Positions 24,001-27,000 of a stretch of 64,000 nt of DNA are shown piece by piece (within the stretch, counting starts at the first letter, position 1; the number at the start of each line of letters is the position of its first letter). A program made the position numbers. The DNA is from Myxococcales bacterium. GTDB lineage: Bacteria; Myxococcota_A; Polyangia; Polyangiales; DASUME01. The stretch covers positions 3,200,001-3,264,000 of the forward strand of contig JASGJH010000001.1 in NCBI GenBank assembly GCA_047601445.1, read 5' to 3'.

Positions 24001-27000
24001 GCACCTGACTGACCTCGAAGAGCGCTTCGGCCTGGTAATCGAGCTCGGCCGCCAGGCGCCGGTGGTTCTCGGCCACCGCCTGTGGGTCGTCCCCCACGTT
24101 GCGCGCGAGGTTCAGGTCGGAGAAGGGCGCCGCGCTGACGCCCCCCCGTCGGAGCGTGAACCCGTGACGAAAACCAGCCTCGCCGAGGAGCTTCGCGCGC
24201 AGACAGAGGGACACCCGTGCTTGTCTAACACGAAGACGCGCGATACGTACGGCGCGACATGGCACTTCAGTTCCCCTCGGCCCCCTGGGCCAACGCCTAC
24301 AAGGACGCGATCAACCAGAACGCGCTCTACAAGAAGTCGGCTGCCAACTGGGATCAGGGGGCGATCGCACTGGTCTGCCAGGCTGCCCCCGAATTCGGCG
24401 TGCCCACGGCCGTGGGCATCGTGCTGGATCTCATCCACGGTGAATGCCGCGGCGTCGTGTACACCGAAGAGCGCAGCGTCATCGACGCCACGCCCTTCGT
24501 GATCGAAGCCAGCTACGCGCAGTGGAAGGCCGTGATGCGCGGCGAGACCGATCCGATCCGCGCCATGCTGCAGGGCCAGCTGAAGCTCTCCAAGGGTCAC
24601 TTGCCCACCATCATCAAGGACGTCGAAGGCTCCAAGCAGCTGGTCTTGAGCGCCTCCAAGATCGACACCGAGTTCCTCGGATGAGCGGCGGCGAGCCAGC
24701 CATCGAGCTCTTTCCGGGCGCCGAGGAGCTGGCGTTCGCCACCATCATGGTGGACCTCATTCGCACGAACCTGGCCGATCGCCCGCCCAAGCGCCGGGAC
24801 TTCGAGGCCATGCGTGGTCGCGTAGCGCTGGTGGCCGAAGACATCGGATTGTCCATCACGCTGCGCTTCCAGCGAGGTCGCTTGAGCGTGCACCCAGGCC
24901 TGTTCGGCATCCCCAATCTGGTAGTACGCGGCCCGAGCAGCGCACTCATCGATTTGTCGCGCTTGCCACCGCACCCGCGGCTCAAGTTCCTGCCGGACCT
25001 GGGCTCCGACGTGGCGCGCGCTCTCGGCACGGCGCTGCGCGAGCGCAGCCTGCGGATCTACGGGCTCCTCGGCCACGCTGGCCTGGGCTTGCGTTTTGCT
25101 CGCGTGCTCTCCATCTATTGAGGATGGAACTCGACTATCGGCACAGTTTCGCGCCCGACGAGGCCCGGGAGCGCGTACGCGCGCTGACGGACTATCTGTC
25201 GAACAAGCACGGCATGAAGGTCCAATGGACCGGTCCCGACACCGCCAAGGTGCAGGGCAAGTACACGGTCGTGAGCATCGAGGCGGAATCTCAAGCTCGA
25301 GAGCGGCCGCGTATGCGTTCAGGGCAAGGACCCTGGCTTCATGTGGCGCTTGCCAGCCAAGAAGTACATCGAGGGCAAGCTCGTGCAGTACCTGGACTCG
25401 AGCAAGCCGCTGGACATCCTCCCACGCACCTGAGGAATCACGGGCCCGTCATCCCCGTGCCCGTGCCCGCCTTCTTCTTCTTCTTTCGAGCAGGGGGCCG
25501 TTGGCGCTCTGCGCCTCCGCAAAGCAAAAGGGCGACCGCTAACGCGGCCGCCCTTTTGGTGCAGAAGAGAGGACTCGAACCTCCACGGGTTGCCCCACCA
25601 GATCCTTAGTCTGGCGCGTATGCCAATTCCGCCACTTCTGCCTGCGTGTCCGGGTGTCCCCGGCTGAACAGTGGCCGCAATCCTAGTGTGGAGCCCCCCG
25701 CTGTCAAGCCCGGGAGTCGTTTCAGTACGCGTCCTTGCCTCGCGACAGGTTCTTGACCTAGGCCCCCGAAAGATGCGCTGATTTTGGGTGTGCGTCGGCG
25801 GGGCCGGATCGGCCGTCCCAGACGCGGGCTGAGCCAGCCACATAGGGAGGGTGCCATGTTCAAGGATGTGTTGCGCGACGTCGTGGAGCGCACCGATGGG
25901 GGGATCGCCGGCCTCCTGATGGGGTTCGACGGGATCCCGGTCGAAAACTACGTGAAGGGCGACCTCTCCGTGGATGTGGAGACTGTGGGCATGGAGTACA
26001 GCGTGATCCTCACGCAGATCATCAAGGCCGCGAAGATGCTGGAGGCCGGCGAGGCCCGCGAGGTCGCCATCCAGGCTGAGAAGGTCACCACGGTGATCCG
26101 CCTGCTCAACAAGGACTACTTCGTGGCCCTCACCATGGCCCCCCAGGGTAACTTCGGAAAGGGCCGCTTCCTGTTGCGCACCCTGACCCCCAAGCTGCTC
26201 GACGATCTGCTCTGAGCCATGACCCTCGCCAACGCCGCCGATCTCTCCGTTCTCGTCCTGCACGGCCCCAACCTCAACCTGTTGGGCACGCGTGAGCCCG
26301 AGGTCTACGGCTATCGCACGCTTGCCGACATCGATCGCGAGCTCACGGAGCTGGCCAAGAGCCTGGGCGTCACGCTCGAGTCCCTGCAATCGAACCATGA
26401 AGGCGTCTTGATCGACCGCATCCATGGTTCGCGCGGCAAGCACCAGGGCATCGTCATCAACCCGGGCGGGCTAACCCACACCTCGGTGGCCTTGCGCGAT
26501 GCCCTGCTCGGGGTGGGTCTCCCCGCGATCGAGGTCCATCTCAGCAACATCCACCGGCGCGAGGCCTTCCGACACACGTCGCTCACGGCCGCCGCCTGCG
26601 TGGGGTGCATCCTCGGGTTCGGCCCGAACAGCTATGCGCTCGGACTGCGCGCCCTGGTCGACCACCTGCGCTCCCAGTAGCCGCCGCTCCGGGGGCCCGA
26701 GAGCCAGCGCTCGAGCGTTGGTTTTCCGGGGCGACCCCGAATCGGGATGCTACCTTGACGGCCGCGCGCCCCCGGGGTGCGCCCGCTGGCACGAGCCGGC
26801 GTATTTCGACCGAGGCGACCGAGGCTCCATGGATATCGATCTCAAGCAACTGAAAGAATTGATGCGCTCCCTCAAGCAGTTCGACATCACCGAACTCGAG
26901 GTCGAGAAGGACGGAGAGCGGATCAAGCTGTGTCGTGGCGGCGAGGTGGTCGCTGCGCCCGTCAGCGTTGCGCCTCCTGGCTATGCCGCAGCCCCGAGCG

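What a model noticed while it worked through the whole genome (the two positions that open the first line are those of the whole stretch)
25557..25641. tRNA-Leu(AAG) has replaced tRNA-Leu(GAG): an A34 (inosine-type) leucine tRNA is the only reader of CUC/CUU
The genome has no tRNA-Leu(GAG); its 119,092 CUC codons (joint commonest Leu codon) are left to a tRNA-Leu with anticodon AAG, which needs A34-to-inosine editing to read C. The swap is fixed in the genus and most Polyangiales families, recurs in other Myxococcota families, and goes with a U32-to-C32 change that makes the loop (CU-AAG-GA) a one-base variant of the TadA substrate loop of tRNA-Arg (CU-ACG-GA).
Evidence so far: Leu tRNA set is TAG, TAA, AAG, CAG, CAA; codon counts call 12. 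Not a sequencing error: best hit is tRNA-Leu(AAG) in 8 of 9 genus genomes and 14 of 21 other-family genomes (plus one 8-nt-loop AAG; calls 16, 18, 21). Pattern scans of the same 151 phylum genomes: AAG in 31, GAG in 77, none with both; 31 of 32 AAG matches have C32, all listed GAG matches have U32. tadA lies beside tRNA-Arg(ACG).
(Added by a program. Inside this text positions count along the whole contig: contig position 3,200,001 is position 1 of the stretch shown here. "Call 12" and the like, gene names such as g00115 and contig names such as C1 are that model's own, and its searches are not shown. The text may have been shortened before it was handed on; [...] marks where a part breaks off. 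The agent that wrote the report below was given it as the finding of a first reader that could run no searches.)

Follow-up and report, generated by a model that had tools for sequence, protein, structure and literature searches.

The report
Inosine-type leucine tRNA in myxobacteria
This is a real leucine tRNA gene whose first anticodon letter is A instead of the usual bacterial G; the type is known from streptococci, where it is edited to inosine, but here it arose several times in GC-rich myxobacteria, together with a matching change in the editing enzyme.

Summary
Confirmed: intact tRNA-Leu(AAG), no GAG gene in the genome, 40% of Leu codons are CUC. It is a new case of the tRNA-Leu(IAG) shown in Lactobacillales; the scan already noted it in another Polyangiales genome (e1-2407566). 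Editing was not observed; I put it at about 0.85. New here: (1) a tree gives one large AAG clade (20 of 24 families), five further gains and one reversal; four switches sit in place at the GAG locus. (2) The loop changes at 32 and 38 (UU-GAG-GU to CU-AAG-GA); A38 is stricter than C32. (3) TadA position 165 (E. coli R152, proposed to line the base-35 pocket) is Ile/Val in 46 of 57 AAG and 1 of 62 GAG Myxococcota, but not in other phyla. (4) One AAG family also lacks tRNA-Leu(UAG) (1 of 26), which would leave CUA to IAG. 'Only reader' and 'needs inosine' are overstated: a native UAG tRNA remains here and unedited A34 reads some CUC. AAG genes also occur in many other phyla.

The parts
25557..25641 (-). 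tRNA-Leu(AAG) gene, long variable arm, A73 discriminator, encoded CCA
   Evidence: same gene in 9 of 10 genomes of the genus, own included
25603..25609 (-). anticodon loop CU-AAG-GA (A34 at 25607); differs from this genome's tRNA-Arg loop CU-ACG-GA only at position 35
25680..25707 (-). sigma-70-like promoter TTGACA-16-TAGGAT upstream of the tRNA
   Evidence: 1 found, 0.1 expected from shuffles; consensus match only
25526..25557 (.). G+C-rich hairpin flanked by A4/T4 just after the tRNA 3' end; possible terminator
   Evidence: read by eye; the terminator scan did not call it
25856..26215 (+). 119-aa gene next to the tRNA (roadblock/MglC-like is my recalled label, from no call); marks the conserved locus
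   Evidence: beside the AAG gene in many families and beside the GAG gene of revertant genus g25
26219..28642 (+). aroQ, accB, accC: housekeeping neighbours used for synteny; not part of the mechanism

Best explanation
The gene is the cell's housekeeping reader of CUC and CUU. It is transcribed with A34, and the single TadA (encoded beside tRNA-Arg(ACG)) deaminates A34 to inosine, as it does for tRNA-Arg. The resulting IAG anticodon reads CUC, CUU and weakly CUA. The tRNA became a substrate by taking on the TadA loop (C32, A38, and usually an A31-U39 pair), and Myxococcota TadA usually carries Ile/Val at the residue facing base 35, the one base that differs from the Arg loop. Shown: gene, loss of GAG, loop, distribution, enzyme gene, covariation. 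Inferred: expression, editing, the role of the TadA residue, decoding.
For: CUC is 40% of Leu codons and no GAG gene exists. The loop is the same as in Streptococcus AAG genes, which are fully edited by TadA (PMC11472039; PMC13249217). Switches move positions 32 and 38 with 34: congeners G226 (UU-GAG-GU) and G200 (CU-AAG-GA) share body and locus, and the revertant genus g25 goes back to UU-GAG-GU at the AAG locus (AU test rejects an AAG-only clade, p 5e-44). E. coli TadA editing of an AAG loop was blocked by every tested change at 32, 37 or 38 (PMC11066159 section 11). TadA 165 is I/V in 32 of 40 AAG vs 1 of 33 GAG genomes, 14 of 17 vs 0 of 29 in a second set, and in 6 of 7 contrasts (best column reached by 4 of 128 sign flips). 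It aligns to E. coli R152, proposed to narrow the C35 pocket (PMC10586758). Family f22 lacks UAG (1 of 26) while 44 of 48 GAG genomes have it, so an A-reading wobble base is needed there. CUU is used slightly more on the AAG side in 6 of 7 contrasts.
Against: No RNA evidence. E. coli TadA did not edit S. pyogenes tRNA-Leu(AAG) in vitro and an AAG-GA loop variant was not detectably edited in E. coli, so the loop alone is not enough. 11 of 57 AAG genomes keep Leu at TadA 165, and outside Myxococcota the residue is mostly L, K, R, A or Q (I in 3 of 30 genomes with YU-AAG-GA loops; R in Streptococcus oralis), so it is neither required nor general. The column was picked after looking and some contrast partners are not strict sisters. 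11 of 142 AAG genomes have U32. A34 substitutions are tolerated in E. coli without severe cost (bioRxiv 10.64898/2026.05.15.725136, abstract). The CUU shift is small (raw share 0.081 vs 0.090 among high-GC genomes, p 0.95). CUA is very rare in f22 (2 of 1,412 Leu codons in 80 kb of G050).
Confidence: 0.85

Rival explanations
1. A34 stays unedited or only partly edited. The tRNA reads CUC by A:C wobble or two-out-of-three pairing, helped by an unmodified-U34 tRNA-Leu(UAG).
For: Unedited AAG read CUC at 13:87 against CUU in E. coli. [quoted passage not shown] No cmoB or trhO here, so U34 may be unmodified. 16 of 120 AAG genes in other phyla keep a GAG-type loop (UU-AAG-GG/GU), which suggests an unedited route exists.
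Against: It does not explain why 32 and 38 move to the TadA-substrate bases at each gain and move back at the reversal, nor the TadA covariation, nor why CUC stays about ten times commoner than CUU, nor UAG loss in f22.
Confidence: 0.11
2. A34 is edited, but by one of the other deaminase-fold proteins, not by the canonical TadA.
For: Two further proteins (279 and 280 aa frames) score best, though far below cut-off, against the TadA model (76.8 and 47.3 bits).
Against: Only the tRNA-Arg-linked protein passes the TadA cut-off; it is the one that covaries with AAG; in streptococci TadA itself does the job.
Confidence: 0.03
3. Sequencing or assembly error, pseudogene, or accessory mobile tRNA.
For: The assembly has foreign DNA (first ~122 kb) and 5.4% contamination.
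Against: Same gene at a conserved housekeeping locus in 126 Polyangiales genomes whose sequence was shown; local GC matches the host; promoter-like site present.
Confidence: 0.01

Closest known systems
tRNA-Leu(AAG), edited to IAG by TadA, in Lactobacillales (Oenococcus oeni; Streptococcus pyogenes, PMC11472039; S. mutans and S. pneumoniae TadA, PMC13249217)
   Same: A34 Leu tRNA replaces GAG at clade level; same loop YU-AAG-GA; single tadA; housekeeping AAG and GAG are mutually exclusive.
   Different: Host is 66% GC with CUC about ten times CUU, whereas all 15 genera with a fixed A34 tRNA in a 2026 survey were 60-70% AT. No UUA pool to recode and no rise in the CUY share. One family lacks UAG, which the Lactobacillales keep. 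Different residue at TadA 152-equivalent (I/V vs G in S. pyogenes). Several gains and a reversal inside one phylum. Editing not shown.
tRNA-Arg(ACG to ICG) / TadA, the canonical bacterial I34 system
   Same: Loop identical except base 35; same presumed enzyme; in f22 the CUN box is left with A34 plus C34 readers, like the two-tRNA CGN box of most bacteria (PMC3711424, listing abstract).
   Different: Leucine body and identity; recent, reversible origin.
tRNA-Leu(AAG) genes noted in Prochlorococcus and Mycoplasma (PMC13249217 concluding remarks)
   Same: AAG gene outside Bacilli, editing untested in that paper.
   Different: AT-rich, reduced genomes; Myxococcota are not mentioned in the main texts I searched.

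Membership tests
Bacterial tRNA-Leu(IAG) (Lactobacillales type) | Intact tRNA-Leu gene with A34 | tested here: met
Bacterial tRNA-Leu(IAG) (Lactobacillales type) | Replaces tRNA-Leu(GAG) in the genome and clade | tested here: met
   extra GAG only in divergent arrays of 4 relatives
Bacterial tRNA-Leu(IAG) (Lactobacillales type) | TadA-type loop YU-AAG-GA | tested here: met
Bacterial tRNA-Leu(IAG) (Lactobacillales type) | tadA gene present | tested here: met
   NF008113 166.7 bits, cut-off 150
Bacterial tRNA-Leu(IAG) (Lactobacillales type) | Inosine at 34 in the mature tRNA, made by TadA | not testable with these tools
   no RNA holder listed; only contigs could be laid
Bacterial tRNA-Leu(IAG) (Lactobacillales type) | Accompanying recoding (CUU/CUC up at the cost of UUA); a reported correlate, not strictly defining | tested here: not met
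   CUY share of Leu 0.56 (39 AAG) vs 0.60 (38 GAG), p 0.19; only a small CUU-over-CUC shift
Bacterial tRNA-Leu(IAG) (Lactobacillales type) | tRNA-Leu(UAG) retained to read CUA | tested here: met
   met in this genome; not met in family f22, 1 of 26
Accessory/mobile A34 tRNAs | Sporadic, beside a normal G34 gene, in an array or island | tested here: not met
   conserved locus, no GAG, clade-wide

The most novel reading that the evidence does not exclude
Myxococcota are a repeated natural experiment in widening TadA's substrate range. Each gain of tRNA-Leu(IAG) pairs a three-base loop change with a beta-branched residue at the enzyme's base-35 pocket (E. coli 152), and both revert together. In one family the process went further and tRNA-Leu(UAG) was lost, so the CUN box is read by IAG plus CAG like the arginine box. 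tRNA-Leu(AAG) is also spread over many phyla and high-GC genomes, not confined to AT-rich Bacilli.
Probability: 0.4. Interest if true: 0.7.

Novelty: new variant of a known kind. Interest (0 to 1): 0.5.

Why it matters
How TadA took on a second tRNA is stated as open in the S. pyogenes paper, and it is the bacterial analogue of the step that led to eukaryotic ADAT. This phylum offers matched pairs (congeners with AAG and GAG, a revertant genus) and a single candidate residue at a position already important in base-editor engineering. It also runs against two published generalisations: that fixed A34 tRNAs belong to AT-rich genomes, and that they displace only the G34 isoacceptor. It does not change the genetic code, and the tRNA type itself is known.

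Tried and rejected
RNA evidence: no RNA holder listed; laying four contig runs showed only diverged relatives and nothing on editing. Origin from the second TAG gene (63,158), which has the same stem and loop flanks: rejected for this genome, because it lies in ~122 kb of low-GC, planctomycete-like DNA (the planctomycete label is my recall of the gene types). Origin of AAG by U34A from a UAG gene in G359 and G363: synteny puts G359's gene at the GAG locus and G363's at neither locus; a gene-conversion contribution from UAG arms is not excluded. TadA I/V as a universal determinant: rejected. Loss of tadA in genomes with GAG-type AAG loops: not seen, most have a TadA-like hit (46 of 50 genomes overall, some partial). 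Lactobacillales-style recoding: not seen. Minimum-energy folding does not give the cloverleaf (z -1.5), uninformative for a tRNA. xo5U pathway: no cmoB over cut-off, no trhO, and the one U32 peptidase is in an 895-aa frame far below the TrhP cut-off; cmoA was not searched. The pattern had no positive control; one search repeated the test with one. Rafels-Ybern 2018 was not held and 2019 was not looked up by id; the supplement of PMC13249217 (Fig. S1C-D, taxon survey) could not be read and may list Myxococcota. G115 is marked unpublished: it enters only the tally and was left out of all counts I rely on.

Full report
1. Observation. The window holds an 85-nt tRNA-Leu gene at 25557-25641 (-) with anticodon AAG, loop CU-AAG-GA, an encoded CCA end and a promoter-like site upstream. 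The 9.5-Mb single-contig genome (98.7% complete, 5.4% contaminated) has Leu genes AAG, CAA, CAG, TAA and two TAG, and no GAG. A profile of 15 relatives' GAG genes finds none. One TAG gene lies in about 122 kb of foreign-looking DNA; the other is native. My gene calls give CUU 9,936, CUC 113,644, CUA 6,675 and CUG 114,652. One protein passes the TadA cut-off and is encoded beside tRNA-Arg(ACG), whose loop is CU-ACG-GA.

2. Distribution. An exact pattern for AAG or GAG matched 235 of 251 genomes of the order (150 matches were listed, and I read more). Among genomes whose sequence I saw, 126 have AAG and 82 GAG; 31 matched genomes of family f17 were not read. AAG is the state of 20 of 24 families; f10, f12, f16 and f17 have GAG. 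Outside the order, 85 of 121 phylum genomes matched: 16 AAG, 69 GAG. Four AAG genomes also carry a GAG gene, each in a divergent tRNA array. A scan of all GTDB contigs stopped at 120 rows but showed AAG genes in many phyla.

3. History. A tree of 23 proteins from the ribosomal-protein operon in 78 genomes (FastTree; 31-genome IQ-TREE check) puts the Polyangiales AAG families in one clade, sister to GAG family f12. Genus g25 (GAG) nests inside AAG family f3, and an AAG-only clade is rejected (p-AU 5e-44), so the simplest reading is a reversal. Separate gains appear in G200, G328, G359, G363 and family f32. Four switches are in place: g25's GAG has the body and neighbours of f3's AAG; G200 and its congener G226 share body and flanks; G328 and G359 share neighbours with relatives' GAG genes. 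For the main clade I could not show the ancestral locus: GAG families other than g25 have no Leu tRNA within 1.5 kb of the marker gene. G363's gene may be foreign.

4. Loop. GAG housekeeping genes have UU-GAG-GU or UU-GAG-GG; AAG genes have CU-AAG-GA. G200 against G226 shows all three changes on one body. C32 has exceptions (11 of 142 genomes); A38 had none among the genes shown in full. Across other phyla 104 of 120 AAG genes have A38. In E. coli, changes at 32, 37 or 38 blocked TadA editing of an AAG loop (PMC11066159, passages and section 11). That paper's edited loop has A37, and its G37 variant was not edited, so the enzyme must differ too.

5. Enzyme. In 74 TadA sequences one column stood out: position 165, Ile/Val in 32 of 40 AAG and 1 of 33 GAG genomes, one GAG row being truncated. 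A second set gave 14 of 17 and 0 of 29 (of 50 genomes searched, 3 had no hit and 1 was truncated). Over seven tree-based contrasts it follows AAG six times with one tie; 4 of 128 sign flips reach that score over all columns and residue classes. The revertants have Leu. A TadA tree without that column keeps G200, G363, G359, G328 and g25 with their GAG or AAG kin, so the residue was not imported with a foreign gene in those cases; f32 is weakly placed. The site aligns to E. coli R152 and S. aureus L148. A review proposes that R26 and R152 narrow the C35 pocket, and says this needs a bound structure (PMC10586758, passages). Against generality: 11 of 57 AAG genomes have Leu, and other phyla show no such rule. 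The column was chosen after inspection, and kin are not independent in the pooled counts.

6. Decoding. Codon use of ribosomal-protein-operon genes shows no rise in CUY share and no raw CUU difference among high-GC genomes. Corrected for GC, CUU is somewhat commoner with AAG (+0.40 +/- 0.09 logit, not corrected for kinship) and in 6 of 7 contrasts (one-sided sign test about 0.06, worked by hand). The exception, G328, is also the lineage without the TadA change. This fits the report that I34 evens out CUU and CUC reading (PMC13249217, parts 1-2 of 7 and passages). Family f22 lacks tRNA-Leu(UAG): 1 of 26 by pattern, none among the long tRNAs of the 59 Rfam hits in single-contig G050, none by BLAST in four f22 genomes, against 44 of 48 GAG genomes. 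Other AAG groups are patchy (f8 outside its largest genus 12 of 26), and fragmented assemblies often lose this gene. CUA is rare there but needs a reader, and IAG is the only candidate found. In the window's own genome UAG remains, cmoB and trhO were not found, and its reach is unknown, so 'only reader' is likely for CUC but not shown.

7. Comparison with what is known. tRNA-Leu(IAG) is established in O. oeni (cited in PMC8072771, passages), S. pyogenes (PMC11472039, passages and section 42) and S. mutans (PMC13249217). The last says almost all AAG genes are in Bacilli and adds Mycoplasma and Prochlorococcus. A 2026 preprint (10.64898/2026.05.15.725136, part 1, passages and section 14) finds fixed A34 tRNAs only in AT-rich genera. 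PMC8007984 (passages) lists Firmicutes. Term searches of the main texts of PMC11472039, PMC8007984 and the preprint found no 'Myxo'; in PMC13249217 I saw no mention in the parts read. Nine library searches listed no paper on this tRNA in Myxococcota. The library lacks most subscription papers, Rafels-Ybern 2018 was not held, and the taxon figures and supplements were unseen, so single Myxococcota entries may already sit in surveys or tRNA databases.

8. Verdict. Real and functional by all genomic signs; very probably inosine-edited (0.85); the same kind as the Lactobacillales tRNA, in a high-GC, CUC-dominated setting, with repeated gains, one reversal, a candidate enzyme residue and one family that seems to have lost UAG. 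New variant of a known kind; interest 0.5.

Noticed in passing
G000:C1:1-~122,000 (outside the window): GC 0.54-0.59 against 0.66 and planctomycete-like genes: probably foreign or chimeric DNA in the assembly. It holds the second tRNA-Leu(TAG) (63,158), an integrase-like gene beside it and a partial repeat at ~100,810.
   Followed up: partly
G000:C1:8,017,821-8,053,638 (outside the window): The native tRNA-Leu(TAG) is the attachment site of a ~36-kb prophage-like element, with a partial tRNA repeat at its far end.
   Followed up: partly
L081-L200 (genome-contig scan): tRNA-Leu(AAG) in records titled Akkermansia and other Verrucomicrobiota, Prochlorococcus, Ca. Actinomarina, Planctomycetota, Synergistota, Clostridia, Alphaproteobacteria, Cloacimonadota and Sumerlaeia. 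Loops: CU/GA 92, UU/GA 12, UU/GG 14, UU/GU 2 of 120. In the class of L090, 16 AAG and 28 GAG among 44 matched of 121 genomes.
   Followed up: partly
L083, L092, L095, L101, L102, L110, L112, L129, L149, L153, L169, L173, L184, L190: A second class of AAG genes keeps the GAG-type loop (UU-AAG-GG), mostly in small-genome Clostridia/Bacilli; candidates for unedited A34.
   Followed up: partly
L440-L443, L464: Large divergent tRNA arrays (20 or more genes in G120, G175, G112; smaller in G170, G050) carrying Leu(GAG) and, in all but G170, Arg(GCG), anticodons the hosts otherwise lack.
   Followed up: no
L509 (G101:C118): The only UAG gene found in family f22 has a body like tRNA-Leu(UAA), suggesting secondary recruitment.
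   Followed up: no
L472 (G030:C34:18-101): A copy of the AAG tRNA body with anticodon CCG and other A-to-C changes at a contig start; decayed copy or assembly artefact.
   Followed up: no
window 40535-40911: tRNA cluster His-Arg(TCG)-Lys. In other Myxococcota the His/Lys or His/Arg cluster also carries Leu(TAG); here it does not.
   Followed up: no
L519 (G363:C11): G363's AAG gene has an unrelated acceptor stem and shares no neighbours with its family's GAG or UAG loci; possibly acquired horizontally.
   Followed up: partly
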